From a virus: DNA of 64,000 nt. Each line of letters starts with the position of its first letter. Within the stretch, counting starts at the first letter, position 1. The stretch lies in the IMG/VR virus record IMGVR_UViG_3300029441_000005, positions 12,773-76,772 of that record, one strand, 5' to 3'. A program made the position numbers and the translations under genes. Below are positions 12,691 through 64,000 of this stretch, one piece after another. The notes below the pieces were generated by a model. That model was not told the origin of the DNA. It worked only from the letters and a program-made list of their open reading frames with translations, and searched no databases.

Positions 12691-12708
12691 AAGAATTATA
12701 AAATCATG

Positions 12709-12791
12709 TACTCGGAGCGGGAATCGAACCCGCAAGGTCAATGACCGTCAGAGCTTAAATCTGATGAGTTTACCTATTTCTCCATCCGAGC
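12709..12791 (-). tRNA. tRNA-Leu (anticodon TAA), type II with long variable arm
   Basis: Hand-folded: acceptor GCTCGGA/TCCGAGT, anticodon loop TTTAAGC, variable arm CGGTCATTGACCTTG, T-arm GCGGG-TTCGATT-CCCGC. Confidence 0.85.
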
Positions 12792-12800
12792 AATAAAAAT

Positions 12801-12821
12801 GAGGAGTTATCAGTACTCCTC
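12801..12821 (-). terminator. hairpin GAGGAGT-N7-ACTCCTC followed (minus strand) by ATTTTTATT, immediately 5' of tRNA-Leu
   Basis: Perfect 7-bp stem read directly. Could be a terminator or a processing signal. Confidence 0.35.
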
Positions 12822-13002
12822 TAAACTGGCCGCTGACAAGATATTACCTCTAGAAAGATATCTCACCATTACAGTATCAATTAAGCATCTTATACTTTAT
12901 ACTTATTTAGGTGTTTTTCCTAAAGGGAGATACTTACCTTTAGTAATATGATTGATCAGTTCATATTCTCACCCAAATATACCATCTGCTTTTCAATGGT
13001 AG

Positions 13003-13077
13003 TACGGAAGACAGGATTCGAACCTGCGACCCCTTGCTCCCAAAGCAAGTACACTAACCGGACTGTGCTACTTCCGT
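13003..13077 (-). tRNA. tRNA-Pro (anticodon TGG)
   Basis: Hand-folded: acceptor ACGGAAG/CTTCCGT, anticodon stem-loop CTTGC-TTTGGGA-GCAAG, T-loop TTCGAAT. Confidence 0.85.
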
Positions 13078-13166
13078 AAATTAGGTACCAGTCTATATCC
13101 CTACCGTCCAGTACCTGGGAATGAATCAGGACTCGTTGTCCACAGCGCAAAATAAAGATTCATTAG

Positions 13167-13240
<74 letters not shown>

Positions 13241-13318: not shown

Positions 13319-14092
13319 TTACCTTAATTCGGTCTGGATAGAAGTTTTGAGTTTTACCCAGTCCTTTTTATAACTATGCAAACTATCAATAGTATGATAG
13401 AGATAACCAGGTTTGGTACCCACTTCTCTAGCTACGTATTCCATTAGTTTCCATGCCAAGTATACATCATTTCCAAAGTGAGTTACAAAATCTGATGATC
13501 TTTGGTGATAGCAAATATTTAATTGCTTTTCACCTCGGGCATTCTCCCGTATTAGGAAGTCGTAGTACATTGAACATGGGATGCGCATCTTACCATCCAG
13601 GCTTTCAGCATCTGAATATTCTACCTGCCCATCTTCACCATAGATATTAAGTATGGCTTTACGAGTATCGTTATCATCCTTGAGCAGACCTATAACAGCC
13701 TGTAACTTGGTCATTACAATCCCATTATACCTTACTACCTCATTCATTCTCTCTGAATAAGTATAGTCGAAGTACCTACCATTTACAAGAAACTCCCCCC
13801 ATATTTCAGGACGTAATTTCCAAGCTTCTCCTGGGTTAATTTGTCCCGGATGGATCCTTTCCTGGAACTCGGCATCTGCCCAATCTTTGGATTGGGTGAA
13901 TACAAATAGGGGAGCCGGGTCTTCCATGTGAGTTAAACAGTACTGTTCACATATCAATTCTTTAGTAATAAAGTCATCTTTGCCTTCGATAACTTTATTC
14001 TGATAGGTACGGGGTTTTACCTCATTACCCATCTCACAAAGATTACGAGCTGTTTCTGACATTAACTCATACGGGTTCGAATATATTCTCAT
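13319..14092 (-). CDS. thymidylate synthase / dCMP hydroxymethylase superfamily enzyme (Asp at the base-specificity position, as in T4 gp42)
   Basis: DTRKAILNIY, nucleophile IPCSMYYDF, HQRSSDFVTHFGND, DSLHSY align with the TS and dCMP-HMase core motifs. Confidence 0.75.
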   Translation of the reverse strand: MRIYSNPYELMSETARNLCEMGNEVKPRTYQNKVIEGKDDFITKELICEQYCLTHMEDPAPLFVFTQSKDWADAEFQERIHPGQINPGEAWKLRPEIWGEFLVNGRYFDYTYSERMNEVVRYNGIVMTKLQAVIGLLKDDNDTRKAILNIYGEDGQVEYSDAESLDGKMRIPCSMYYDFLIRENARGEKQLNICYHQRSSDFVTHFGNDVYLAWKLMEYVAREVGTKPGYLYHTIDSLHSYKKDWVKLKTSIQTELR

Positions 14093-16254: not shown

Positions 16255-17166
16255 CTAATACTTCGATTTTTGACGGAACATATTGATACGGTTCTTCTTG
16301 AAATAGATGTAGAATACATCATCTGAACCCATACCTATCCATCCCAAATACCCACAGAAGTAGATGAAGGCCTTCACTAATTCCGACTGATACTTTAACT
16401 CCTGAGTCATTACCTGGGATTGCTTCCAGGGTTTATTCTTCAGGAAGTTACGAGCAATGTTCAGATGATGGGTTATCTTCCATAACAGATATGGGTAGTT
16501 TACTAAGTACTCTACATAATTGAAGTATCTACCTCCCTCGAGTAACTTTGTGTTATAGTCCAGATGTGTTTCTGAATCCATGTTCTCGTACCACTTGATA
16601 AGGTCTGTGGCATTGTTGTGTAAGATAACACTGATATCTCCCTTGACCATTATCCACATTACCCCGAGATTCATTGCTGTACGCAGAATATCATCGTGGT
16701 TCTTGTTTAGAGAATCTACCACTGATTGAGTACAATGGTTGTCCTTTACCCACTTCTCCATATATGTCATTATATCCTCTGGTTGGATATTGGCATATAT
16801 AAGCAGTTCTATAAAGAAGTGGATTGCATCGGCGTTCTCTTCGTTAGCATTCTGCAGATTATTGAGTATCTCTGTATACTCTATGCAATCTCCTTGGGTT
16901 TGTACCAACTTGGCATGATTGGCTTCGAATAAAGCCATAACATTTTCGAAAGATTCATATCCTTCGGATAACTCCTCAATAACCCGGGCAGTAAAGTCCT
17001 TCAATAGTGTTTGAGAAGCCTTTGTATTGATGTCTACCGGATACTGTGGTAGCCCCTCTATGCCTATATACCCAGACAAGAGGTTCTTTTGCATTTGATA
17101 TATCTCTTCTAGATACTTATGGTCGGGAATTATACCCGGTTCTTCTTTTATATCGCGACTATCCAT
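16255..17166 (-). CDS. all-alpha MazG-like / dimeric-dUTPase-like NTP pyrophosphatase (start moved to MDSRDIKEE)
   Basis: EELSEGYESFE and EENADAIHFFIELLIY resemble the paired EExxE/D metal motifs of the MazG superfamily. Confidence 0.45.
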   Translation of the reverse strand: MDSRDIKEEPGIIPDHKYLEEIYQMQKNLLSGYIGIEGLPQYPVDINTKASQTLLKDFTARVIEELSEGYESFENVMALFEANHAKLVQTQGDCIEYTEILNNLQNANEENADAIHFFIELLIYANIQPEDIMTYMEKWVKDNHCTQSVVDSLNKNHDDILRTAMNLGVMWIMVKGDISVILHNNATDLIKWYENMDSETHLDYNTKLLEGGRYFNYVEYLVNYPYLLWKITHHLNIARNFLKNKPWKQSQVMTQELKYQSELVKAFIYFCGYLGWIGMGSDDVFYIYFKKNRINMFRQKSKY

Positions 17167-17170
17167 GGTC

Positions 17171-17746
17171 TTACTTGTTATCGTGTGCTCCGAATCCTTT
17201 GTCTCCTCTTGTACCCCAGTTCTTTGCCTTCTCTTCGTACTCTTCATTGGTAATCTCTACCGGAGTTGAAAGTATGATGGGAACGTGTACGAATTGCATT
17301 ATTTTCTTACCTTGGTTCAGAGGAATACAAACCTCTTCGGGTGAACCGTTATGAATACCTATGTGCATTTCCCCAGTATAAGGGCTATCCACTATCTCGG
17401 CAGTGAACGACAAACCCTCTTTAGTTGCAATCCCAGATTTATTTGCTGCCATGAGCATGGACTCTTTTGGATTGATAAGTACCTTTATACCAGAAGGGAT
17501 GAGAAGTCTTCCACCTGGCTTAATTACCACATGTACATCATCAGTACCCAACCCATTTAGTTTGATGTAACCTTTACCTAACATCTTCCGATTGATACCG
17601 GAAAAGTCATCCTTACCTTTCTCCCCAACCTTAAGAATATCTTGGTCGGATAACTGAGGAATGTAGAAATCAAGCCCTGCATCCCCCTCATTTGCTCGGT
17701 TAGGGGATTTAACCTCTCGAATCTTTGTGAACTCTAATTGTACCAT
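17171..17746 (-). CDS. dut: trimeric dUTPase-family pyrophosphatase
   Basis: GDAGLDFY, KSGIATKEG, IVDSPYTGEMHIGIHN, C-terminal RGDKGFGAHD (motifs 1-5). Confidence 0.8.
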   Translation of the reverse strand: MVQLEFTKIREVKSPNRANEGDAGLDFYIPQLSDQDILKVGEKGKDDFSGINRKMLGKGYIKLNGLGTDDVHVVIKPGGRLLIPSGIKVLINPKESMLMAANKSGIATKEGLSFTAEIVDSPYTGEMHIGIHNGSPEEVCIPLNQGKKIMQFVHVPIILSTPVEITNEEYEEKAKNWGTRGDKGFGAHDNK

Positions 17747-51267: not shown

Positions 51268-53763
51268 TTACTGAGGAATTACTACAGTACCAGATGGACT
51301 GTGAGACCTGATATGATTAGTGATAGCTTTACCGAATATCGCATCATCAGAATATGTTTCACCTTCCAAATCCAGGTCCATAGAGGAGTTATTCATTCTA
51401 TGCTTACCACGAGCAATAGGTCTTCCAGCACCGTCATAAATAAAGGTGTATGCTTCTTGTACAAAGAACGGGTCTTTTATAATTACGTTCTCTTCCCTGA
51501 TATCCTTCTCTAAGTTCTCGATTATTACAGAACGGTTCTTGGTTGTGGTCAACCATCCCGGGAACTTATCTTCTTCTGGTCTATTCTTCCTCTTCTTACG
51601 TAAGAGCTTAGTATAGAAGTATAGATTAGGATATCCCTCATCTTGAAGTATGGTAGTTACCGTCATACCAACATCATTGGTCTCGGGAGCTAACTTAGCA
51701 AAATTGAACTTCTCTCCAACATCACCAAGGAGTCGGGCATACTTGTTCAGGGGTATTCTCCCCTTATATACTGCAGCCTCTTCCCCTTCTTTATCCATAC
51801 AGGTGAAAGCAGAGTAGTCAGTACCTCTACCAGTAGCACAGTCACCACCAATAAAGTATTCTTTGTTCGGGTCAGGTTCATTGAACTCTTTATACTGACC
51901 CTTGAGACGAGTATTGATAACAGGGTAGTCAAATAAGCATTCCTCTATAGCTTTAATATCAGCTAAGTCGAATACTGTATTACCAGATGATAAGAAGTCA
52001 CCATCTATCTCCTGAGCAGTTCTCTTGGGACCAAGAGCAGCAGACATTTCTTCATACCATTTCTCATCTCTGTCAGGGTGCATCTGCCAATACAATCGTA
52101 TGGGGTTAAACGGATTACCCCCAGATATAGCATCTACCCAAGTACTATGGAAGAAGTTCCCGACGCCATAGGGGGTGTTATGAGACACGTAGTCTTCGTT
52201 GATGAGGTAAGATTCATCGTTTTCAACGCAAATATCATAAATGGTGTCGTAATACTTCCTGACTACTTTCAGCTTAGAAAGGTAGATACTTGTACATCTT
52301 TTACCAGATACAATACGTTGAATATATGGTTTGTTCAGCTTAACTCCGAACTTATCTTCAACCTCTTTAGATATCTTCTCTAACACTCCATAATAGTAAC
52401 CAAGTTCTTGATAACGATACCTTATGTAAGCTACTACTCTTAAGTCGTAGTTGAATCCACCTTTCAGCTTAGACCCAAGCTTCATGCCATAAGAGTATTT
52501 TGCAGCTTTTTGACTGTTCTCAGCTACTGTAACTATCTGGAGATTGGTTACATAGTTGTCTGAAGGATTGTTGTTAATGTGGTCAACTACATATCCTTCT
52601 GGAATTTCTCCTAAGAATACTTTAGCCACCAGATTGTGGACACATATCTTTTTCTTTTGACCCTTATTCCACAACCTTATATTTAGGTATCTCTCCCTAT
52701 TATTACAAGGTCTTGGTAACTTCTCTACCCTCGTCCCATTCTTTACAATGAAGATTCTTCCCCAGTTGGAGACTTCATAGTTTGGATAACCAGGTATGGG
52801 TTTGCATATCTCTTTCTTGGGTTTTACGGTTACTGGATTCTGCTCCAGACCGCTTATACCAGTATGATAGAAGATAGCAGGTATATCTCGTTTGATTATC
52901 TCTGAAACAGGTAACCAACCTTCAAGAGTATACAACTTATGTTTTGGAGTACATTTAATAACCCTACCTTGTTCATTGTGAACTTCCCAGGTTTTCAGTA
53001 CACCCTTGTTTACAGAACCAAGTACTCTCTGCCACTTTCCGGTATGTGATAATACTCTCAACCCGAGATGAGATATATCCATCTTACCAAAGGTCTTAGG
53101 ACATATAGAATCAACTCTGAAAGGTCCATCTTCACCTATTATCTGAGTGTCACCCGTGATACATGAGTTTACTATAGCAGCACCACCAGTTGATAGAGTA
53201 GGGAAGGCTGATGCCCAGATAGTTGAAGCCCATCTTACGATTGCTGCTTCATCAATCACCAACAACGACAAAGATTCAGAACGACCAGCTTGGTCAGAGG
53301 TTGGAATAGATTCTATTACAGAACCATTTGCAAACTCTATAGTTGATACAGAACCGAACTCCCCTGCACGACCGTTAATGATAGGCTCTTGCAAGTATGA
53401 AGGAAGGTTCTTGTACATGAATTTAATCTTCTTTAGTACCTTCTTTGCTACGGTGTCCTTGATTGAGATAATGTTTATCTTCTTGTTAGGATGATACATT
53501 GCTAACCAAAGACAGTAGAGAGAGATTAGCTCAGTAATACCAGCCTGACGAAACTTTAGGATGATATTGAACCTGTTGAGCATGAATTGGTATAGCACTG
53601 CCTTCTGAAAAGGATAAAACAAGAACTTTACCATACCCAACACGGGGTTTATCACGTAGCAGAAAGTAGAAAAGAAGAAAGGGTCTTTCATCACCCGAAC
53701 CAATGTCTTAAGTTGTTCTGGTGTAAGACTTGCATCTTCAACTAATGTCTTCTTTCTTGCCAT
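51268..53763 (-). CDS. terminase large subunit gene: terminase large subunit, interrupted in-frame by an intein
   Basis: Walker B LLVIDEAA and nuclease-domain FIGGDCATGRGTDYSAF. Extein total 502 aa. Confidence 0.85.
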   Translation of the reverse strand: MARKKTLVEDASLTPEQLKTLVRVMKDPFFFSTFCYVINPVLGMVKFLFYPFQKAVLYQFMLNRFNIILKFRQAGITELISLYCLWLAMYHPNKKINIISIKDTVAKKVLKKIKFMYKNLPSYLQEPIINGRAGEFGSVSTIEFANGSVIESIPTSDQAGRSESLSLLVIDEAAIVRWASTIWASAFPTLSTGGAAIVNSCITGDTQIIGEDGPFRVDSICPKTFGKMDISHLGLRVLSHTGKWQRVLGSVNKGVLKTWEVHNEQGRVIKCTPKHKLYTLEGWLPVSEIIKRDIPAIFYHTGISGLEQNPVTVKPKKEICKPIPGYPNYEVSNWGRIFIVKNGTRVEKLPRPCNNRERYLNIRLWNKGQKKKICVHNLVAKVFLGEIPEGYVVDHINNNPSDNYVTNLQIVTVAENSQKAAKYSYGMKLGSKLKGGFNYDLRVVAYIRYRYQELGYYYGVLEKISKEVEDKFGVKLNKPYIQRIVSGKRCTSIYLSKLKVVRKYYDTIYDICVENDESYLINEDYVSHNTPYGVGNFFHSTWVDAISGGNPFNPIRLYWQMHPDRDEKWYEEMSAALGPKRTAQEIDGDFLSSGNTVFDLADIKAIEECLFDYPVINTRLKGQYKEFNEPDPNKEYFIGGDCATGRGTDYSAFTCMDKEGEEAAVYKGRIPLNKYARLLGDVGEKFNFAKLAPETNDVGMTVTTILQDEGYPNLYFYTKLLRKKRKNRPEEDKFPGWLTTTKNRSVIIENLEKDIREENVIIKDPFFVQEAYTFIYDGAGRPIARGKHRMNNSSMDLDLEGETYSDDAIFGKAITNHIRSHSPSGTVVIPQ
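52177..53163 (-). mobile_element. 329-aa class-1 intein with a nested NUMOD4/HNH homing endonuclease
   Basis: N-splice ...AAIVNS|CITGDTQIIGEDG (Cys codon 53161-53163). C-splice ...EDYVSHN|T (Asn codon 52177-52179, +1 Thr). Internal YPNYEVSNWGRIF ... VHNLVAKVFLGEIPEGYVVDHINNNPSDNYVTNLQ. Confidence 0.8.
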
Positions 53764-54594: not shown

Positions 54595-55593
54595 TCATTT
54601 TGATATTAGACCAGCCTTTTGTAAACAGGATTTTAACCACAATGAATTCTCATATACGGCACCCTTAGTTAGGGTATTTCTCCCTTTATTCAACCAATAA
54701 GTCGGATTAGCATTGTCAAAATATACCTTGAATGATTTGGGAAAACCCATAATCACCCTATATTCATCAAGTCCCATTATTCTACCGTGGGGATTAAATT
54801 GCCTTGATGAAGGTCTTACGGTTAATGGGTAGCTCTTTTTCTTATTTCGATATACTCCAGGAAGAGTCTTCATCTTTTGAGTTCTCATGGGCCATTTGTA
54901 ATCATTTTTGAACTCAGTTTTCCATAGCTTTCTCACTTGAGCTACTGTCAAAGTAGTTTTTGACTTATCTGCATAATGATACATGGCCAATTTTTTATCG
55001 TCAGCTTCTCTATAGTTTATGTCTCTCCTTACTCCTTTCTTCAGTTGACACAGATTTTTGGGTTTAGTAACTCTAAAAGTATGATCAAAGATCTGAGGAT
55101 TGATCTTGGAGTCTTTTCTGACTCCTATTAACACCAAACGTTTCCTACTTTGTTGAGAATTACCAAATACCGTAACGGAGTGACAGTGCACTATAAGTTT
55201 GTAATCGGGTAAATTATGTTCCCATTCCCCGATAGGGATAAAATCTAGAAGTTTTGGGAGGTTCTCAAGCATAAATATTGCTGGTTTGAACTTCTTAATA
55301 CTAGAAAGATACAGATTAAGAGTAACATCTTCCCGGGGTTTGCCCAGGGATTTTTTCCTGGAATATGAGAATACCGAGCTATGCCCACATGATGGAGAGC
55401 CGAGTATTAGGTCTATTTTGGAAGTTTTTACCTCTTCCAGTGACTTTACAAACGGTATATCACCAAAATTAAGCTTCCATTGCTCTTCTTTTTTGGAATG
55501 GAATACTGCTCTGGGTTCTACATTAGCTATAAGATGTTCCTTAAACTCAAAAAGAAGCGCTCCTTGGGCTCCACAGATACCTAAGACATTCAT
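54595..55593 (-). CDS. C5-cytosine methyltransferase-fold enzyme with a variant catalytic motif (start moved to MNVLGICG)
   Basis: Motif I GICGAQG, IV GSPSCGHSS (PCQ becomes SCG), VI MLENLPKL, VIII QQSRKRLVLIG, IX RIMGLDEYRVIMGFPKSF, X KGAV. Confidence 0.7.
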   Translation of the reverse strand: MNVLGICGAQGALLFEFKEHLIANVEPRAVFHSKKEEQWKLNFGDIPFVKSLEEVKTSKIDLILGSPSCGHSSVFSYSRKKSLGKPREDVTLNLYLSSIKKFKPAIFMLENLPKLLDFIPIGEWEHNLPDYKLIVHCHSVTVFGNSQQSRKRLVLIGVRKDSKINPQIFDHTFRVTKPKNLCQLKKGVRRDINYREADDKKLAMYHYADKSKTTLTVAQVRKLWKTEFKNDYKWPMRTQKMKTLPGVYRNKKKSYPLTVRPSSRQFNPHGRIMGLDEYRVIMGFPKSFKVYFDNANPTYWLNKGRNTLTKGAVYENSLWLKSCLQKAGLISK

Positions 55594-55671
55594 TGAAAAT
55601 AGAATTTTATAATATATACCGGAAGGTCTTGCAAAGACTACTTTAATATACAAATTTAATATCAAAACTAC

Positions 55672-58980: not shown

Positions 58981-59007
58981 AATAGGGGACAAATTTTGTC
59001 CCCTATT
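58981..59007. terminator. bidirectional terminator at a convergent junction
   Basis: AATAGGGGACAAA-T-TTTGTCCCCTATT, 13-nt arms flanked by A/T runs. Confidence 0.65.
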
Positions 59008-59016
59008 CGATTTTAT

Positions 59017-59355
59017 TTACTTGCTTTCTTTTTCATTCATTGCAAGTAAGAAATTTTTGATTGTGTCCCTTTTTTCTGTATTTGCATTTGCATCGACGAT
59101 GCAATTTGCATTTATATATACTTGCTTTGCATATTCTTGCCATGCTTTTTTTAGTGCTTTCCTTTTTTCTATATTTTTATTGCTTGCAATAAATTCTGCT
59201 ATGAACGCATCTAACTTTTTACGCAACTTCATTCGCAGATTCTTTTTTTCTTTGTCGGTTTTACATTCTGCAAAGATTTCTTTTTTGTAGATGCTTTTTC
59301 TTTCGTTGGTCGAAAAAATTTCGTTGCCGATTGCTAAAATTTCATTTGCTTTCAT
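59017..59355 (-). CDS. hypothetical Lys-rich early protein
   Basis: 112-aa ORF with its own consensus promoter. Starts MKAN, like the next early gene. Confidence 0.5.
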   Translation of the reverse strand: MKANEILAIGNEIFSTNERKSIYKKEIFAECKTDKEKKNLRMKLRKKLDAFIAEFIASNKNIEKRKALKKAWQEYAKQVYINANCIVDANANTEKRDTIKNFLLAMNEKESK

Positions 59356-59406
59356 AGTAGTAAAATTTTTAATTGGTTTAACTTTTATTAGTTCTTTTCT
59401 GTATTA

Positions 59407-59437
59407 CAAATATACAACAAATATTTTCAATTACAAA
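59407..59437 (-). promoter_or_regulatory. early promoter (TTTG-19 nt-TATATTTG)
   Basis: Reverse complement TTTGtaattgaaaatatttgttgTATATTTGtaatac. Confidence 0.6.
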
Positions 59438-59473
59438 ATTTTAGACATAAATTTTGATTATATTTTCCTATAA

Positions 59474-59966
59474 TAGAACAAATTAGGATAAATATTGCCT
59501 ATTAGGGAATTAGGGTGTTAAGGTAGGTGGGTTTAATGGTAAGTTGAGTATAAGGTTATTGTTGGTGGGATGGTTTGTTGGTATAAGGTTGGATTGAAAT
59601 TAGGCCTTAGCTGGCACCTTTGGGTACCTCAACTCCTCGGGTTATGGCCTTTAATGTTCCTTTTCATTTTCGGCCTTGGTCCTTGGGAATCTAGAACTAT
59701 ATAATTTTATAACTAAGTAAACTTATATTCCGTAAGTACTAAGTTTCTATGATATGCCCCTACTTGCAAATGGGAACACTTTATTTTGCATTGCACTTTA
59801 GGAAAATTTTGAATACAGGGTTGGGATTGGTGCCAAGAGGTGCCTGCATGGCCTATAATATAAAAGGCCTATAAGCCAAGCCACTAAAAGCGATATAAGG
59901 CCTTAACCCTATACATATCTAAAAGGCCCCCTATAAGGTAGGCCTAAGTTTAGGTTTAACCTGGGT
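59474..59966. repeat. non-coding spacer: 104-nt C-free tract followed by a GGCC-palindrome-rich segment
   Basis: No ORF of 60 aa or more. 8 GGCC sites hand-counted in 59600-59966. Confidence 0.7.
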
Positions 59967-60332
59967 TTATTCCAGGTAGGATATATTTAGGAGAATAAGC
60001 CCGTCGGCGATATTTGATGAGGTTATTCGGATAGAGCCCAGGTCTGAGTTAAGTTCGAAGTTGAGTTTTTCGATTATGGGAGTTTCGAAGTCCCGGTCGG
60101 ATTCCTGGTAGGAGGTATCCAGGATAAGGGAGGTGATTTCGGCACCGTGGGCAGAATCGAGAGTCCAATTGTGAGAGTGATAGAAGGAGAGTTCCTCGGG
60201 TTGAGGGAGAAGGTCGGTGAGGGTTTGAGCAATTTGGGAGATTGCAGGGAGTGCAGAGTTGAGCATGGAGAAGGTTGCAAGTTGGTTTTGCAGTTGGTTC
60301 TCAATTTGATTTTTAATTTGATTTGCTTTCAT
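59967..60332 (-). CDS. hypothetical early protein
   Basis: 121-aa ORF with consensus promoter. Confidence 0.5.
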   Translation of the reverse strand: MKANQIKNQIENQLQNQLATFSMLNSALPAISQIAQTLTDLLPQPEELSFYHSHNWTLDSAHGAEITSLILDTSYQESDRDFETPIIEKLNFELNSDLGSIRITSSNIADGLILLNISYLE

Positions 60333-60374
60333 AATTGTAAGAATTAAATATTAGTTATTTCTTTTTCTACATTA

Positions 60375-60406
60375 CAAATATAATCATAATATTTAATATA
60401 CACAAA
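60375..60406 (-). promoter_or_regulatory. early promoter (TTTG-20 nt-TATATTTG)
   Basis: Reverse complement TTTGtgtatattaaatattatgatTATATTTGtaatg. Confidence 0.6.
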
Positions 60407-60503
60407 TTAAATATTAGGGCCTTCAAGTGGGCCTAAGGTTTATGGCCACTATAAGGCACCAGAGGGTACCCAGGTTGAATCCCTAAAGGCCTTATAAGCT
60501 CAT

Positions 60504-60532
60504 AAATAAAAAAGGCCTGGGTTGGCAGGCCT
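60504..60532 (-). terminator. intrinsic terminator after 60577-60963
   Basis: The minus strand reads AGGCCTG-CCAACC-CAGGCCT followed by TTTTTTATTTAT. Confidence 0.6.
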
Positions 60533-60576
60533 AACAGAAAAGAGAAATGAAAGCAAATAGGTGGGCCAACCCCCAC

Positions 60577-60963
60577 CTATGCCAATGTCTCCATATAGGT
60601 TATATACATTCCCAAATCACTATCCGCAAAGGTTAATGCAATCCCAGCCCGGTTCGAAGTTACCATGGTAATCCCGTTACCAACTTCGTTTACCTTGTAA
60701 TCACCTTGAACATATTCCTTGAATTGCTCGGTTAACCTACCGGTTAAATCCTGGCTTGCCTCGCATAACTTATCAATCCCATCATAATCCTCGTTATACA
60801 GAGTCGGATTATATTCCAGGAACATAGCCTGCCAACTATCACCACTGCGAGGGTTAAACTCCTGGGACATACCCGGAATAAAATACGAAGCCCCGTTACC
60901 TGCCTCGTAAGCCTTATCCTTAATTAACCCCTTAACCGATGCAATTAAATCAAATCTTTTCAT
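60577..60963 (-). CDS. hypothetical early protein
   Basis: 128-aa ORF with a promoter and a terminator. Confidence 0.5.
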   Translation of the reverse strand: MKRFDLIASVKGLIKDKAYEAGNGASYFIPGMSQEFNPRSGDSWQAMFLEYNPTLYNEDYDGIDKLCEASQDLTGRLTEQFKEYVQGDYKVNEVGNGITMVTSNRAGIALTFADSDLGMYITYMETLA

Positions 60964-61000
60964 AACCTTAAAATTAGTTAATTATTATTATACTGTATTA

Positions 61001-61032
61001 CAAGTATAATATAATTATACTATATATGCAAA
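61001..61032 (-). promoter_or_regulatory. early promoter variant (TTTG-20 nt-TATACTTG)
   Basis: Reverse complement TTTGcatatatagtataattatatTATACTTGtaatac. Confidence 0.5.
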
Positions 61033-61055
61033 TTAAAGATGAAGGCCTTTGAAGG

Positions 61056-61280
61056 TTAGATTTTATCGACCTCCAAACCTTCCGGACCCATATTCAGGAT
61101 ATAACCTGCCTGAATCAAATTATTAACTACCGAGGGTACACATTTCTTAATATGCAACCTGAATTCCGATTGGCCCATATACCCTACGAAGTTATCCTTG
61201 GGAGTATTGATTGCCAATTCGGTGGAATGGTGTTTGGAGATAATTTCCAGGGCAGTGGTAAAATCTTTAGAATTAAGCAT
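61056..61280 (-). CDS. hypothetical early protein
   Basis: 74-aa ORF. Leader ends TTAAGGCC-ATG, as for 62992-63342. Confidence 0.5.
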   Translation of the reverse strand: MLNSKDFTTALEIISKHHSTELAINTPKDNFVGYMGQSEFRLHIKKCVPSVVNNLIQAGYILNMGPEGLEVDKI

Positions 61281-61322
61281 GGCCTTAAATGTTTTGGGGT
61301 TTATTATTTATCTTTCTTTATA

Positions 61323-61354
61323 CAAATATAAGAATAATATATAATATATGCAAA
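61323..61354 (-). promoter_or_regulatory. early promoter (TTTG-20 nt-TATATTTG)
   Basis: Reverse complement TTTGcatatattatatattattctTATATTTGtataa. Confidence 0.6.
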
Positions 61355-62181
61355 TAAATATTCTGGGCCCTCATTAGGCCTTGGGCCCTTAATCCTAAAG
61401 GCCACTAAAAGCTAATCCTTATATAATATAAAGGCTATATTAAGGTACCTTAACCTACCATAAAAGGCCTTAAAAGGTACCTTAAATGTGCCCTAACTAA
61501 GCCTTAACTTGAGAAATCAAATCTCCAATACTCTATTCCTGGCATATCGATTTTAGACACCTGTTCCAAAATCCCCTAAAATACTCGCATATATATATAT
61601 AATATAGATTGTATTCTTTAGGGATTGGGATTAAGGCCCTTAAAGGCACCTAAGTGTACCAATGAAGTTATTCATCTATTCTCAGATATAGACCTGTAGA
61701 GAGGCTATAAGTCTCTTTATCGAAAAGGCCTTAGCTAAGGGCCTTAACCTTACCTTAAAAGACTTATGATTATATATAATATAGACTTGATTGAGATGGG
61801 ATTTAGGGTACCTTAAAGGCTGCCTTTAGGGCTCTCTTTGGGTCTTAGGGCCCTAAGTCTGGTTAGCTACTACGTATAGTAACAAAGATAGCTCCAGAGC
61901 TCTTAGGGTACACAGTAAGGCCCTACCCTTGCCTTAACCAAAATTTTTTCCTCACCCCGATTTTATGGCCCTTGGACTTTTTCGTCGTCCGGACCCGTAT
62001 TACCGACTGCCTGTTAACTTTTGCCCTATCTGAACACACAAATAAAAGGCCTCTAAGATAAAAGCCAACCTTAAAAGCCTTATATGATTGATGATTATAA
62101 GTATATGTATTTATATAAGGGCTTATATATAGGATGATGTTATGGATATTTGATTTCTTTTGTGTTTTGGGGTAGAGGGTA
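61355..62181. repeat. ~830-bp non-coding region dense in short palindromes (AAGGCCTT, TTAAGGTACCTTAA, CTTAGGGCCCTAAG) with a ~176-nt periodic TATATAATATA box
   Basis: No ORF of 60 aa or more on either strand. 12 GGCC sites hand-counted in 61361-62080. Confidence 0.75.
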
Positions 62182-62334
62182 TTAGAATCCTGGCTTTAGG
62201 TTGAGATGCCTTAATACTTCCCTTAGTTCGGAATCTGTATAAGCCTTTGCCTTTTGGATTGGGATGTTGTTATGGTTTGAGGCTATGATGATGGCCTTTT
62301 CTTTTGATACCTTAATTGGTTTTCTTTGTTTCAT
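62182..62334 (-). CDS. small hypothetical protein (50 aa, below the ORF-track cutoff)
   Basis: Own translation MKQRKPIKVSKEKAIIIASNHNNIPIQKAKAYTDSELREVLRHLNLKPGF. The ATG is 3 nt after the upstream stop. Confidence 0.4.
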   Translation of the reverse strand: MKQRKPIKVSKEKAIIIASNHNNIPIQKAKAYTDSELREVLRHLNLKPGF

Positions 62335-62337
62335 AGG

Positions 62338-62550
62338 TTATTCTTTGGTTGTGGGCATATCTTCTTTTTCTACCCAGATTTTATCTATGGTGGTTCTATG
62401 GAACTTGCCTTCGGTATTTAGGATTATGGCCATTTGATAACCTGAACCACAGTGCCAATGTTGGATATATCCTTTGTATACAACATCAGTGTAAAGCCCA
62501 GTATCTTCATCCCTTTCTTGACTGGTGTAATGTACTAAAATGTCTTTCAT
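62338..62550 (-). CDS. hypothetical early protein
   Basis: 70-aa ORF. Confidence 0.45.
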   Translation of the reverse strand: MKDILVHYTSQERDEDTGLYTDVVYKGYIQHWHCGSGYQMAIILNTEGKFHRTTIDKIWVEKEDMPTTKE

Positions 62551-62705
62551 AGCTTTATTTGGATTTAGGGTAGAACTTATTCTTGAGAGCGGTGTAATTC
62601 CTTGTAGAGTTCAGATAACTTTGCATTGAGTTGATTCATTGAGAGATCTCTTAATTCTCTGGATTCAGTGCATTTCATAGTATAGATGATTATGAGTAAT
62701 AAGTA

Positions 62706-62867
62706 TCATCTGCCCAGTTTTCTCCTACGACATCCTGGATGTTTTGGATTTTCTTCTGGGATTGGTAGGAAGTTCTTTCCATTACAGAAGGTATAGCATC
62801 CTCCTCCCTCTTCTAAGGGTCTCTGACATTTTGTGCAGATATGGGTTGAATTGGATTTAGGTTTCAT
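62706..62867 (-). CDS. small zinc-ribbon protein (start taken at MKPKSNSTH)
   Basis: CTKC ... CYTFC. The longer ORF-track version overlaps a better-looking TM ORF. Confidence 0.4.
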   Translation of the reverse strand: MKPKSNSTHICTKCQRPLEEGGGCYTFCNGKNFLPIPEENPKHPGCRRRKLGR

Positions 62868-62869
62868 GA

Positions 62870-62971
62870 TTAGTATTTTATTTGGATGATTACCCAAGAA
62901 ACTATCAGTATTACAGCTACCAGGATTATCCATTCCAGTAATGCTTGCAATAATAACTTAAGTGTTTTCAT
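62870..62971 (-). CDS. 33-aa single-TM peptide (below the ORF-track cutoff)
   Basis: Own translation MKTLKLLLQALLEWIILVAVILIVSWVIIQIKY. The stop lies 2 nt before the next ATG. Confidence 0.35.
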   Translation of the reverse strand: MKTLKLLLQALLEWIILVAVILIVSWVIIQIKY

Positions 62972-62991
62972 ATCCAGCTATCTTTGAGTTA

Positions 62992-63342
62992 CTAGATTGG
63001 GTAGTAGCAGCGGATAGAGATGATACCTCCGTGATTGCGGATTACCCATGTTTGTTCGTATTCGAAATAATCCAGAGACTCGTAAATATCGAATACTGAT
63101 TCCAGTTCTGTATTTGTACCACCAAATATTTCCGTACCCGGAGCCGGTGTGAAGGTGAAAGTATGATGACCACCATACTGATTGTTTCTGGTCTCTATCT
63201 TAGTGAGGAGCATACCATATCTCCGGAGAAATTCCCTGAATGTGCATTGGAAATACATTTCGGGGTCTGTCATGCCTTGTCTTTTGCACCATCCGTGAAC
63301 TTTCTTCAGGAGGTATAAGTAATTGTCTGATTGTTTTTTCAT
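62992..63342 (-). CDS. hypothetical early protein
   Basis: 116-aa ORF with consensus promoter. Confidence 0.5.
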   Translation of the reverse strand: MKKQSDNYLYLLKKVHGWCKRQGMTDPEMYFQCTFREFLRRYGMLLTKIETRNNQYGGHHTFTFTPAPGTEIFGGTNTELESVFDIYESLDYFEYEQTWVIRNHGGIISIRCYYPI

Positions 63343-63385
63343 GGCCTTAATTTATTTAATTAATTATTATCTTATTTCCTATATA

Positions 63386-63417
63386 CAAATATAGCAAATA
63401 TTTTGTAATTATGCAAA
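63386..63417 (-). promoter_or_regulatory. early promoter (TTTG-20 nt-TATATTTG)
   Basis: Reverse complement TTTGcataattacaaaatatttgcTATATTTGtatat. Confidence 0.6.
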
Positions 63418-63433
63418 TAAATATTGAAGGCCT

Positions 63434-63733
63434 TTACCAGCGTTCGTCTTCGATAGTGATGCGAATGTGGACATTTTGTTGAGGATGCTCCTTTAACCAT
63501 CTCTCAATCTCTCCAGCCCTTTCGAGACTGTCGATATAGTCTGGAGCTAAAGCCTTAACTGTTTCATAAGGTAAGCTCCCATCGGGATTTATCCAGGGTT
63601 TAGCAGGTGGCTCTTTTTCCTGGTTTTTATTCTCGATTACTGCCATAATAACTACAATTAGAACAATGGCAATAGCTAACCACATGAATATGATTAGAGT
63701 ACTGCCTTCTGAGTTTTTGTCTTGAGTTTTCAT
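63434..63733 (-). CDS. single-TM membrane protein
   Basis: LIIFMWLAIAIVLIVVIMAVI. Confidence 0.45.
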   Translation of the reverse strand: MKTQDKNSEGSTLIIFMWLAIAIVLIVVIMAVIENKNQEKEPPAKPWINPDGSLPYETVKALAPDYIDSLERAGEIERWLKEHPQQNVHIRITIEDERW

Positions 63734-63981
63734 GAGACTTTATCTTTTAGTTGAACATTGTGAGCTGACATGAGTTCAGCTTTTGACATGAACTCTTTCA
63801 TGTGACTCTCTTTAATGAGAGTGAGTACCTTCTCTCCTGTCTTGGTGTTGACCATCATTGTGGGAAATACTTTAGACATCTTGGGAAGTCCATCTGGACC
63901 TGGTTCTAAGTCTTCTATCAGCATTATTTCTGCTTCCGAGTTTAATGCCAGTATATACGGAACCAATTCAAACATTTTCAT
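63730..63981 (-). CDS. hypothetical protein
   Basis: 83-aa ORF, ATGA overlap with the next gene. Confidence 0.45.
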   Translation of the reverse strand: MKMFELVPYILALNSEAEIMLIEDLEPGPDGLPKMSKVFPTMMVNTKTGEKVLTLIKESHMKEFMSKAELMSAHNVQLKDKVS

Positions 63982-64000
63982 AACTTTGATTTTATGATAT

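What the first reader, a model, noticed from the sequence alone, without database searches (positions are those of the whole stretch)
59474..62181. Early region with oversized non-coding spacers saturated with GGCC/GGTACC-core palindromes built on TTAAGG/CCTTAA half-sites
Seen:
- Intergenic gaps elsewhere in this phage are usually under 30 bp. Here four spacers (59474-59966, 60333-60576, 60964-61055, 61281-62181) total about 1.7 kb without ORFs.
- Hand count of GGCC: 8 in 59600-59966, 7 in 60411-60576 and 12 in 61361-62080.
- By a rough composition-based estimate, about one GGCC per kb would be expected. This was not computed genome-wide.
- The sites nearly always sit in an A/T-flanked palindromic context. 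Examples are AAGGCCTT, TAAGGCCTTA (59898), TTAAGGTACCTTAA (61448, 14 bp), AAGGTACCTT, CTTAGGGCCCTAAG (61844-61857, 14 bp), GGGCCC-N12-GGGCCC (61364-61387) and AAAGGC-T-GCCTTT.
- Four of the early promoters are directly preceded by such an element (GGCC[CT]T...AATATTTAWTTTG).
- Two leaders end TTAAGGCC-ATG.

Inference, several non-exclusive readings:
- An array of binding sites for a dimeric DNA-binding protein (origin, partition, packaging or early-to-middle switch).
- RNA hairpins acting as terminators or insulators between independently promoted early genes. One copy, 60504-60532, is a textbook terminator.
- A deliberate cluster of R-M/methylation target sites.

I know of no described element matching this.
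Basis: partly seen in the sequence, partly recalled or inferred. Interest (0 to 1): 0.68.

Follow-up and report, generated by a model that had tools for sequence, protein, structure and literature searches.

The report
GGCC-word punctuation of phage early cassettes
The far end of the early region of a T4-like gut (Bacteroidetes-type) phage is packed with short GGCC-centred palindromes that form the gene terminators, sit just upstream of the promoters and mark where small gene cassettes are swapped between related phages; it resembles the known "PeSL" cassettes of T4-type phages, but two long, conserved, gene-free stretches are still unexplained.

Summary
**Observation: confirmed.** The four spacers hold 29 GGCC against about 2 expected, and all hand counts and example sites check out. 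The enrichment is confined to this roughly 3-kb zone. Other intergenic gaps of the window have almost none. Every relative found shows it, including one whose neighbouring early protein is only 47% identical.

**What the phage is.** It is a roughly 77-80 kb T4-type myovirus with Bacteroidetes-type promoters (gp17-like terminase, gp32, UvsX, gp46/47).

**Best reading (about 0.5).** This is a hyperplastic early region punctuated by PeSL-like composite motifs built on an A/T-flanked GG(N0-2)CC word:
- Pairs of words form the stems of intrinsic terminators.
- One word lies exactly 11 nt upstream of the -33 box of every promoter in the zone.
- The word ends two leaders (TTAAGGCC-ATG).
- The three commonest mosaic breakpoints fall within 5 nt of a word.
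- One relative has lost a cassette by recombination between two promoter-leader repeats.

**Not explained.**
- Isolated loop-less 10-14 bp palindromes.
- Two gene-free modules, which are not coding under any genetic code.
  - One of them, the big spacer, is better conserved than the genes around it.
  - It shows no convincing RNA covariation.
- A DNA-binding factor or an origin-like element remains possible.

**Novelty:** new variant of a known kind. **Interest:** moderate.

The parts
59474..59966 (-). Spacer 1: gene-free module between the 121-aa and 112-aa early genes, with 8 GGCC and 4 GGYRCC
   Evidence: Counts. All frames are closed. The module is homologous in all relatives and contains invariant blocks.
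59919..59945 (-). Intrinsic terminator of the 121-aa gene: AGGCC-loop-GGCCU followed by UUUUAG, with both stem arms being GGCC words
   Evidence: Sequence. In relatives the stems differ (AAGGCCTA..TAGGCCTT, GGGCCCC..GGGGCC, AAGGCCTACC..GGTAGGCTT), but a hairpin plus T-run is always present.
59861..59906 (-). Second hairpin (AAGGCCU ... AGGCCUU + UUUUAU) enclosing the near-invariant block CGCTTTTAGTGGCTTGGCTTATAGGCCTTTTA
   Evidence: The terminator scan finds a hit at 59882-59866. Block conservation is shown. GCTTTTAGTGGC recurs at 61401-61412.
59741..59768 (-). Invariant non-coding block TGCAAG..GGGGCATATCATAGAAACTT, function unknown
   Evidence: Invariant across 15 diverse relatives, including L026. 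The pattern retrieved 35 viral contigs.
59603..59628 (.). Composite triple GGCC-11-GGCACC-10-GGTACC. The same composite recurs at 60444-60470 and 61635-61660.
   Evidence: (family D4). GGTGCCAGCTAAGGCC is invariant even in L026. The centre of GGYRCC varies without strand preference.
59505..59599 (-). C-rich, G-poor tract on the transcribed strand (rut-like), upstream of the last early promoter
   Evidence: Sequence. Relatives keep a C-rich, G-poor tract with different sequence. This is an inference only.
59395..59473 (-). Early promoter of the 112-aa gene (Bacteroidetes -33 TTTG / -7 TAnnTTTG). It is the only promoter of the zone without a GGCC word.
   Evidence: (D2).
60513..60580 (-). Two intrinsic terminators after the 128-aa gene (60580-60557 and 60532-60513). 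The second has AGGCCUG/CAGGCCU arms followed by UUUUUU.
60353..60436 (-). PeSL-like unit: GGCC-N8-GGCC stem-loop (60414-60436) abutting the early promoter of the 121-aa gene, with GGCC 11 nt before the -33 TTTG
   Evidence: (D1).
60979..61050 (-). Early promoter of the 128-aa gene with a single GGCC word (61044) 11 nt upstream of the -33 box. Also a recurrent mosaic breakpoint at 61050.
   Evidence: The breakpoint is seen in 25 loci.
61281..61388 (-). PeSL-like unit: GGGCCC-N12-GGGCCC stem-loop (61365-61388), early promoter (61301-61369) and a leader ending TTAAGGCC-ATG (61281)
   Evidence: The breakpoint at 61287 is seen in 47 loci. In L008 this leader is fused to the ATG of the 128-aa gene, which deletes one cassette.
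61439..61486 (.). Two copies of the self-complementary word TTAAGGTACCTT 32 nt apart (able to form a 12-bp stem) with a GGCC word between them. Also a mosaic breakpoint at 61466.
   Evidence: (D14, I11). The breakpoint is seen in 32 loci.
61508..61608 (-). Near-invariant 80-nt non-coding block preceded by TCTATATTATATA and a (TA)n tract of variable length. A second TCTATATTATATATA lies at 61771-61785.
61609..62045 (-). Rest of the conserved gene-free module. It contains invariant GG..CC-centred blocks: GGTGCC..GGGCCTTAATCC; the terminator-like pair 61721-61747; GACTTAGGGCCCTAAG at 61844-61859; and AAGGGCCATAAAATC at 61959-61973.
   Evidence: Alignments give per-column conservation of 0.8-0.99 across 81 relatives, higher than in the flanking genes.
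62046..62081 (-). Intrinsic terminator after the 50-aa gene, marking the upstream edge of the GGCC-rich zone
63343..63433 (-). Outlying unit of the same kind: a single GGCC word (63429) 11 nt before the -33 box, a promoter, and a leader ending TTAAGGCC-ATG (63343)
   Evidence: (D1).

Best explanation
This is the distal part of a hyperplastic early region of a T4-type myovirus that uses Bacteroidetes-type host promoters. It is built from small cassettes of the form early promoter, leader, small orphan gene, terminator.

A short A/T-flanked GG(N0-2)CC word (GGCC, GGYRCC or GGGCCC; consensus TWARGGCCYTWW on the transcribed strand) serves as the common punctuation of these cassettes:
1. Two copies a few to about 25 nt apart pair in the early transcript. 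They form the G+C clamp of intrinsic terminators or attenuators that insulate each strong early promoter from the next.
2. The 3' arm of such a stem-loop, or a lone copy, lies 11 nt upstream of the -33 box. This gives a composite terminator/promoter unit like a PeSL.
3. The word also ends two leaders just before the ATG.
4. The words and the roughly 70-nt promoter units are repeated, so they act as linkers for homologous or microhomology recombination by the phage's own UvsX/gp46-47-type machinery. That recombination inserts, deletes and replaces cassettes.

Shown: the enrichment, the terminators, the fixed promoter offset, the cassette polymorphisms and one recombinant junction.

Inferred: that transcription really stops at these sites, and that the words rather than the promoter repeats guide recombination. 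It is also inferred, and weakly, that the two long gene-free modules are non-coding cassettes of the same system and not something else. That last step is the weakest.
For: **Phage type**
- The phage carries a gp17-like large terminase (PDB 3ezk, E 5e-20).
- It has tail sheath and baseplate wedge proteins.
- It has gp32-like, RecA/UvsX-like and SbcCD/gp46-47-like proteins and a DnaB-like helicase.

**Promoters**
- Five promoter units of the TTTG...TAnnTTTG type make a 69-nt repeat family of 64-72% identity.
- The genes they serve are small orphans.

**Terminators built on GGCC pairs**
- The scan finds them at 60532-60513, 62081-62046 and 59882-59866.
- Manual inspection adds 59919-59945 and 61721-61747.
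- At the homologous position after the upstream gene, relatives carry different stems, always of the form AAGGCC..loop..GGCCTTTT.
- Terminators outside the zone, for example 58981-59007, do not use GGCC.

**Fixed promoter offset**
- GGCC lies exactly 11 nt before the -33 TTTG in promoters of the zone in the window, L029, L031, L026 and MT121964.
- Early promoters with the same core outside the zone lack it.

**Cassette turnover**
- L008 lacks the 74-aa gene. Its junction is the P61330 leader TTTAAGGCC fused to the ATG of the 128-aa gene.
- L009-L013 and L015 replace 61466-61287 with another promoter plus a 53-aa membrane ORF.
- The three commonest breakpoints in the zone, 61287 (47 loci), 61466 (32) and 61050 (25), lie 1.5-4.5 nt from a GGCC word.

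**Folding**
- Local folding potential exceeds that of shuffles in all 10 spacers of three lineages.
- The excess is slightly greater on the transcribed strand (z -0.2 to -3.3 against +0.5 to -2.2).

**Literature**
- PeSLs are strong early promoters plus stem-loops, often GGGG..CCCC, in hyperplastic regions.
- They were shown to terminate transcription and to recombine.
- T4 deletions occur at GGGC/GCCC motifs (PMC2839356; PMC4122927).
Against: **Many words are isolated or part of loop-less palindromes**
- By my manual tally of the site list, roughly a third to a half of the words fall in this class.
- Examples are TTAAGGTACCTTAA, CTTAGGGCCCTAAG and AAGGGCCAT.
- These cannot be hairpins on their own and lie far from any gene end or promoter.

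**The gene-free modules do not fit simple punctuation**
- The big spacer is more conserved than the flanking genes across 81 relatives. Simple punctuation would not require that.
- In spacer 1 only some short blocks are invariant.

**RNA structure is weakly supported**
- The folding excess is modest. Spacer 1 has z about -0.2 to -1.0.
- A consensus fold of 57 relatives is no better on the sense strand than on the antisense strand.
- In the GGYRCC pairs, wobble-compatible variants favour sometimes one strand and sometimes the other. This points to a DNA-level GGYRCC constraint.

**The link to recombination is only suggestive**
- Taking all breakpoint clusters seen in at least 3 loci, only 4 of 13 lie within about 5 nt of a word, against about 19% expected.

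**One promoter lacks the word**
- The promoter at 59414 has no GGCC word.
Confidence: 0.5

Rival explanations
1. The words are operator-like sites on double-stranded DNA for an unidentified phage or host dimeric DNA-binding protein. That protein coats this sub-region and co-regulates (shuts off, activates or insulates) the promoters of the zone. The terminators merely reuse the word.
For: - There are perfect 10-14 bp palindromes without loops.
- Nearest-neighbour centre spacing is mostly 10-12 bp. The periodicity of about 11-11.75 bp beats a jitter null in 2000 of 2000 trials.
- One site sits at a fixed 11-nt offset from the -33 box in every promoter of the zone, even in relatives that have diverged strongly. 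Promoters outside the zone lack it.
- GGYRCC cores vary as T/C and A/G without strand preference.
- Sequence is conserved without covariation.
- GGCC core columns are slightly more conserved than other G/C columns (0.836 against 0.785, p = 0.003).
- The PeSL authors themselves speculated that a protein binds the stem-loop motif.
Against: - Half-site spacing varies (0, 1 or 2 bp), which a single rigid dimer would not tolerate.
- The flanks are asymmetric (CCTTAA 14 against TTAAGG 3).
- L026 keeps only one half of some palindromes.
- The periodicity is largely accounted for by the nearest-neighbour gaps, which also fit stem-plus-loop geometry (gap-shuffle p = 0.054).
- No DNA-binding domain was found in the neighbouring genes.
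- The conserved 112-aa Lys-rich protein gave only a low-confidence helical model.
Confidence: 0.25
2. The big gene-free module (61470-62130) is a replication origin. It would consist of short repeated protein-binding words flanking an easily melted (TA)n tract. Alternatively it would be a T4-style R-loop origin.
For: - A (TA)n tract of variable length is flanked by near-invariant non-coding blocks and GG..CC word clusters.
- The phage has T4-type replication and recombination genes.
- The module is more conserved than the neighbouring genes.
- It lies close to strong early promoters.
Against: - There are no iterons of the usual 17-22 bp.
- There are no DnaA boxes in the region.
- No initiator gene was recognised.
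- No canonical promoter reads into the (TA)n tract.
- Word clusters also fill three other spacers and are interleaved with genes.
- The GC-skew change lies near 54 kb, not here, and is confounded by gene orientation.
Confidence: 0.1
3. The gene-free modules encode structured non-coding RNAs (decoys, sRNA precursors or long 3' UTRs) in which the self-complementary words make the helices.
For: - Any two copies of a palindromic word can pair. A 12-bp stem is predicted between 61439-61454 and 61472-61486.
- The big spacer folds better than shuffles on the sense strand (z -4.4 global, -2.5 to -3.3 local).
- In L026, TTAAGG has become TTAGGG in both copies of that pair, which would give G-U pairs on the sense strand only (manual reading).
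Against: - There is no Rfam match.
- No internal canonical promoter exists, and an intrinsic terminator lies upstream of the big module.
- The alignment fold gives equal energy and more compensatory pairs on the antisense strand.
- Spacer 1 shows no folding excess.
- The direction of wobble pairing is inconsistent.
Confidence: 0.08
4. The cluster is a set of restriction-modification or methylation targets (GGCC, GGYRCC, GGGCCC). It would be read by the phage C5-methyltransferase or a host system, for example as a methylation-gated switch.
For: - All core variants are classical type II palindromes.
- The phage encodes a C5-cytosine methyltransferase at 54595-55665, just upstream of the terminase genes.
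Against: - GGCC is neither avoided nor enriched in the rest of the genome (1.3 per kb against about 1.45 expected).
- The methyltransferase has no detectable similarity to any solved C5-methyltransferase, so its target is unknown.
- No mechanism explains why targets should be concentrated here.
Confidence: 0.05
5. The region marks a physical genome end or a packaging or injection signal. It would resemble the untranslated palindrome-rich injection-stop region of T5, or, from my memory and not checked here, the short-repeat arrays next to the T7 terminal repeat.
For: - It is a large untranslated, repeat- and palindrome-rich region among early genes, as in T5 (bioRxiv 10.1101/866236).
- Many metagenomic contigs end within a few hundred bp of 61460-61600.
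Against: - The terminase is T4 gp17-like, which argues for headful packaging of a permuted genome without fixed ends.
- There are no DnaA boxes.
- Contig ends coincide with the (TA)n tract and with the strain-variable cassette boundary. Both are ordinary causes of assembly breaks.
- The one full-length contig examined simply closes on itself there.
Confidence: 0.03

Closest known systems
PeSL (promoter-early stem-loop) regulatory cassettes of T4-type phage hyperplastic regions (Arbiol et al. 2010, PMC2839356; Comeau et al. 2014, PMC4122927)
   Same: - The host phage is a T4-type myovirus.
- Clusters of small orphan early genes each have their own strong host-type promoter with an A/T-rich upstream part.
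- An adjacent G..C stem-loop terminates or attenuates transcription.
- The units are repeated and similar to each other.
- Insertions, deletions and replacements between close relatives are bounded by the units.
   Different: - The promoters are of the Bacteroidetes -33/-7 type, not sigma-70 -35/-10.
- The stem is built from a specific short palindromic word (GGCC, GGYRCC or GGGCCC with A/T flanks) rather than G-runs paired with C-runs.
- The stem-loop always lies upstream of the -33 box at a fixed 11-nt offset.
- Dozens of extra words fill two long gene-free modules, which PeSLs do not have. At least the larger module is highly conserved.
Intrinsic (Rho-independent) terminators
   Same: A subset of word pairs are G+C stems followed by U-runs, placed directly after stop codons on the transcribed strand.
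   Different: - Most words are not followed by a U-run or have no partner at hairpin distance.
- The same 4-6 nt core is reused in every stem of the zone, and in no terminator outside it.
Untranslated injection-stop (iss) region of the phage T5 left terminal repeat (Davison, bioRxiv 10.1101/866236)
   Same: It is a large conserved untranslated stretch among the earliest genes, crowded with repeats, inverted repeats and palindromes.
   Different: - There are no DnaA boxes here.
- There is no evidence for a terminal repeat or two-step injection.
- The terminase is gp17-like.
Iteron-plus-A/T-rich phage origins (lambda type) and T4 R-loop origins
   Same: Clusters of short repeated, partly dyad-symmetric words lie next to an A/T-rich (TA)n tract in non-coding DNA near early promoters.
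   Different: - The repeat unit is far shorter than an iteron.
- No initiator gene was found.
- No promoter is aimed at the A/T tract.
- The words are spread over four spacers.

Membership tests
PeSL cassettes | Located in a hyperplastic region of small orphan early genes of a T4-type myovirus | tested here: met
   - T4-type core genes are present.
- The early proteins have no family matches.
- The 121-aa early protein has a narrow distribution.
- Gene content varies between relatives.
PeSL cassettes | Composite of a strong host-type early promoter, an A/T-rich upstream region and an adjacent stem-loop | tested here: met
   - Fully met at 60353-60436 and 61301-61388.
- Only a single word with no partner at 61044 and 63429.
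- Absent at the 59414 promoter.
PeSL cassettes | Promoter is sigma-70 type (-35/-10) | tested here: not met
   The promoters are TTTG...TAnnTTTG (Bacteroidetes -33/-7). A sigma-70 scan does no better than shuffles.
PeSL cassettes | Copies within one genome share sequence over tens of bases | tested here: met
   A 69-nt family has 4 copies at 64-72% identity plus a fifth partial copy.
PeSL cassettes | Indels and replacements between close relatives are bounded by the motifs | tested here: met
   - The L008 deletion junction lies in the promoter-leader repeat.
- The replacement 61466-61287 is bounded by GGCC words.
- The top three breakpoints lie within 5 nt of a word, but only 4 of 13 recurrent breakpoints overall.
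PeSL cassettes | Stem-loops terminate transcription, and the units form mini-circles | not testable with these tools
   Requires reporter assays, 3'-end mapping and inverse PCR on infected cells.
Intrinsic terminators | G+C-rich hairpin followed by a U-run on the transcribed strand, downstream of a stop codon | tested here: met
   - Scan hits at 60580-60557, 60532-60513, 62081-62046 and 59882-59866.
- 59919-59945 and 61721-61747 by inspection.
- This applies to about 10-12 of the roughly 45 words only.
T5-type injection-stop region | Ordered series of DnaA boxes | tested here: not met
   No TTATCCACA-like site (up to 1 mismatch) lies in 55-64 kb, and the genome-wide count is at chance level.
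T5-type injection-stop region | Lies in a long terminal repeat of a genome with fixed ends | tested here: inconclusive
   The gp17-like terminase argues against fixed ends. Contig ends near the region have other explanations. No read data were available.
Iteron-type replication origin | Three or more direct repeats of about 17-22 bp, with an initiator gene nearby | tested here: not met
   No such repeat family was found, and no initiator was found among the annotated genes.
Iteron-type replication origin | Adjacent A/T-rich unwinding element | tested here: met
   (TA)n at 61589-61608, of variable length in relatives.
Known structured RNA families (Rfam) | Match to a curated covariance model, or covariation supporting a fold | tested here: not met
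   The only hit is a chance-level microRNA match (E 0.83). The alignment fold is equal on both strands.
R-M / methylation target cluster | A cognate enzyme recognises GGCC or GGYRCC, and the sites are counter-selected elsewhere | tested here: inconclusive
   The methyltransferase specificity is not inferable. GGCC is at its expected frequency outside the zone, so there is no counter-selection.

The most novel reading that the evidence does not exclude
The A/T-flanked GG(N0-2)CC word is the recognition site of a dedicated, still unidentified DNA-binding factor. That factor assembles on the two conserved gene-free modules and at every cassette boundary of this zone. Candidates include a recombination 'cassette-capture' protein of the kind the PeSL authors speculated about, or the organiser of an origin-like nucleoprotein complex. 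The region would then be a new type of cis-acting phage locus rather than passive transcriptional punctuation.
Probability: 0.25. Interest if true: 0.7.

Novelty: new variant of a known kind. Interest (0 to 1): 0.45.

Why it matters
**If the main reading holds**
- PeSL-type modular shuffling would not be confined to T4-like phages of Proteobacteria and cyanobacteria.
- It would also operate in an abundant human-gut phage lineage that uses a quite different (Bacteroidetes) promoter grammar.
- It would do so with a sharply defined linker word.
- That gives a concrete, sequence-searchable marker for the plastic, host-adaptation part of such genomes.
- It also gives ready-made promoter and terminator parts for Bacteroides engineering.

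**If the words bind a protein**
- The two gene-free modules would make this a tractable entry point to an unknown early-infection mechanism. The larger one is better conserved than the genes around it.

Tried and rejected
**Hidden genes or an alternative genetic code: rejected.**
- Every frame of every spacer has many TAA and TAG codons.
- Relatives carry frame-breaking indels.

**tRNA or known RNA families: none in the region**.

**Extra promoters inside the spacers**
- There are no further TTTG/TAnnTTTG promoters.
- The TCTATATTATATATA box occurs only twice, both times inside the big spacer. It is therefore not a general middle or late promoter.

**Methyltransferase specificity: failed.**
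- The enzyme has no PDB match, even at E up to 10.

**Genome termini**
- One full-length contig closes on itself at a repeated word.
- The terminase is gp17-like.

**Candidate binding protein**
- The strongly conserved 112-aa Lys-rich early protein has no informative homologues.
- Its AlphaFold model reaches only pLDDT 65, so no fold search was run.

**Host identification: uninformative.**
- The only hits were mis-binned MAG contigs and a 421-bp contig.

**Literature**
- Searches for the phage name and for the AAGGCCTT motif found nothing relevant.
- A Bacteroides methylome paper does not mention GGCC.

**Other ideas considered from the sequence**
- Integron attC-like core sites (GTTRRRY) and CRISPR-repeat or ToxI-like tandem arrays were considered.
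- They were dropped because only one or two chance-like matches exist and there is no regular repeat.

Full report
**1. What the window is**

All large genes from 1 to 55.6 kb lie on the minus strand.
- They encode a DNA polymerase A, a tape measure protein, a tail sheath, a baseplate wedge, a portal, a head protease and a large terminase split by an intein/HNH insert.
- The terminase matches T4 gp17 (PDB 3ezk, E 5e-20).
- Further genes are gp32-like, RecA/UvsX-like and SbcCD (gp46/47)-like, plus a 5'-3' exonuclease, a DnaB-like helicase and a thymidylate-synthase-like enzyme.

The phage is therefore a small T4-type myovirus. Related contigs are about 76-82 kb and all come from human gut samples.

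The strong promoters are of the Bacteroidetes type (TTTG about 20 nt upstream of TAnnTTTG), not sigma-70. From 64 kb down to 59 kb the minus strand carries small genes without recognisable families. This is the early region.

**2.

- The four spacers (1730 bp) hold 29 GGCC. The rest of the window predicts 2.2 (p about 1e-22). Shuffles give 1.8 (mononucleotide) and 9.1, maximum 18 (dinucleotide).
- GGYRCC is enriched in the same way, but CCGG, GCGC and CGCG are not.
- The enrichment is not a general intergenic or terminator property. Outside this early region the other gaps of at least 50 bp hold 5 GGCC in all. A terminator just outside the zone (58981-59007) uses other stems.
- Nothing in the spacers can be coding, whatever the genetic code.

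**3. Anatomy of the word**

- On the transcribed strand the consensus is T-W-A-R-GGCC-Y-T-W-W.
- It is nearly palindromic, but the TTAA flank is stronger on the 5' side.
- The core can be GGCC, GGGCCC or GGYRCC.
- Centre-to-centre distances between neighbours are mostly 10-12 bp.
- A composite GGCC-11-GGCACC-10-GGTACC-22-GGCC-26-GGCC occurs twice, at 59604 and at 60445.
- The roughly 11-bp periodicity beats a jitter control in 2000 of 2000 trials. It is largely carried by nearest-neighbour gaps (gap-shuffle p = 0.054). It therefore fits either one helical turn of DNA or a 4-6 bp stem with a 4-8 nt loop.

**4. Where the words sit relative to genes**

*(a) After stop codons.*
- Pairs of words make hairpins followed by U-runs on the transcribed strand: 60532-60513, 62081-62046, 59882-59866, 59919-59945 and 61721-61747.
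- Where relatives have a different upstream gene or a diverged sequence, the stem differs. It is still AAGGCC..loop..GGCCTTTT.

*(b) Before promoters.*
- In the window, in moderately diverged relatives (L029, L031), in MT121964 (about 71% identical) and in L026, a GGCC lies exactly 11 nt before the -33 TTTG of the zone's promoters. In L026 the neighbouring early protein is only 47% identical.
- In several cases this GGCC is the 3' arm of a stem-loop (60414-60436, 61365-61388).
- Early promoters with the same core further upstream, outside the zone, lack it.

*(c) Before start codons.* Two leaders end TTAAGGCC-ATG.

*(d) Elsewhere.* The remaining words, by my manual tally roughly a third to a half, are scattered through two gene-free modules.

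**5. Relatives**

About 140 loci were collected from viral, metagenome and assembly collections.
- All real relatives have the same oversized spacers saturated with the same words.
- In L026 many word positions have turned over while the density is kept.
- The big spacer is better conserved across 81 distinct relatives (0.8-0.99 per column between 62130 and 61470) than the genes on either side.
  - Caveat: these loci were retrieved by an exact pattern inside this spacer, so part of this contrast may be selection bias.
- It contains a near-invariant 80-nt block after a (TA)n tract of variable length.
- GGCC core columns are only slightly more conserved than other G/C columns (0.836 against 0.785, p = 0.003).
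- Spacer 1 also has invariant blocks, for example 59741-59768 and 59861-59892.

**6. Cassette turnover**

- L008 lacks the 74-aa gene. Its junction is the leader of promoter P61330 (TTTAAGGCC) joined to the ATG of the 128-aa gene. This is a deletion by recombination between two promoter-leader repeats.
- Six other loci replace 61466-61287 with a different promoter and a 53-aa membrane ORF.
- Across all loci, the three commonest breakpoints in the zone (61287, 61466, 61050) lie within 5 nt of a word.
- Taking all recurrent breakpoints, only 4 of 13 do, against about 19% expected. The link to the words themselves is therefore suggestive, not proven. The link to the promoter-leader repeats is direct.

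**7. RNA or DNA?**

- Local folding exceeds that of shuffles in all ten spacers of three lineages, slightly more on the sense strand. The effect is modest.
- Spacer 1 shows no global folding excess.
- A consensus fold of 57 relatives is no better on the sense strand than on the antisense strand.
- In the two GGYRCC pairs examined, variants keep the GGYRCC pattern, while wobble compatibility flips between strands.
- Conclusion: RNA hairpins explain the terminators, while the remaining words behave like a DNA-level sequence constraint.

**8. Explanation**

The best-supported reading is a hyperplastic early region punctuated by PeSL-like composite terminator/promoter units. These are known from T4-type phages.
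- In those phages the stem-loops, often GGGG..CCCC, terminate transcription, and the repeated units mediate cassette shuffling.
- T4 deletions were seen at GGGC/GCCC motifs (PMC2839356; PMC4122927).
- This locus differs in its promoter grammar, in having a sharply defined word, in the fixed 11-nt offset, and above all in the two conserved gene-free modules.
- I give this reading about 0.5.

The main rival, at about 0.25, is that the words are binding sites for an unidentified protein. An origin-like element, non-coding RNAs, a methylation cluster and a terminus or injection signal follow with lower weights.
- DnaA boxes are absent.
- The gp17-like terminase argues against fixed ends.
- Contig ends near the region are explained by the (TA)n tract and by strain-variable cassette boundaries.

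**9. Verdict**

- The binding-site reading stays open.
- The R-M reading has no support.
- A described analogue does exist (PeSLs).
- This is a new variant of a known kind, of moderate interest.
- It leaves a real unexplained remainder: the conserved gene-free modules.

Noticed in passing
window 51268-53763 (-): The large terminase (T4 gp17-like) is interrupted by an intein-like segment carrying an HNH homing endonuclease. Relatives show products of 777 or 831 aa.
   Followed up: partly
window 59017-59355 (-): A 112-aa Lys-rich early protein is far more conserved than its neighbours: at least 83% identity among the 120 listed hits, and by my reading of the L026 sequence about 75% identity there. 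It has no family match. The AlphaFold model is helical but low-confidence (pLDDT 65).
   Followed up: partly
window 61589-61608: A (TA)n microsatellite differs in length among relatives. Many metagenomic contigs end exactly at it, so it probably causes assembly breaks.
   Followed up: partly
window 59505-59599 and 62132-62181 (- strand): These are C-rich, almost G-free tracts on the transcribed strand. Relatives keep them in composition but not in sequence. They look like Rho-utilisation (rut) sites.
   Followed up: no
window 62182-62334 (-): A conserved 50-aa protein directly upstream of the big spacer has weak SAP/LEM (helix-extension-helix) matches (E about 0.04-0.1). It is a possible small DNA-binding protein and is also present in L026.
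   Followed up: no
window 13319-14092, 16255-17746 (-): Thymidylate-synthase-like, dUTPase_2 (Pfam) and dUTPase-like genes lie together. They could make a modified pyrimidine in the phage DNA, which would bear on any restriction or methylation reading.
   Followed up: no
window 54595-55665 (-): A C5-cytosine methyltransferase lies just upstream of the putative terminase genes. It is too divergent for any match to solved methyltransferases, so its target is unknown.
   Followed up: partly
window 12708-13240 (-): A cluster of three tRNA genes: Leu-TAA, Pro-TGG and Met-CAT.
   Followed up: no
window 60689-60892; loci L013-L015: Some relatives carry an in-frame-looking internal deletion of about 200 bp within the 128-aa early gene. 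MT121964 has only a short version of this gene.
   Followed up: no
window 1-53000 versus 59000-64000: GC skew on the + strand is clearly negative over the minus-strand late and replication genes. It is near zero or positive over the minus-strand early genes. The early region therefore has a different strand composition relative to its coding strand.
   Followed up: no
loci L145-L147: Copies of this phage sit in genome bins labelled Dysosmobacter and Clostridium and in an Atlantibacter assembly. These look like mis-binning or contamination, so public host labels for this phage are unreliable.
   Followed up: no
window 62112-62129: An 18-bp near-perfect A/T-rich palindrome (TATATAAGGGCTTATATA on the + strand) lies just upstream of the 62081-62046 terminator. 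Its centre varies among relatives.
   Followed up: no
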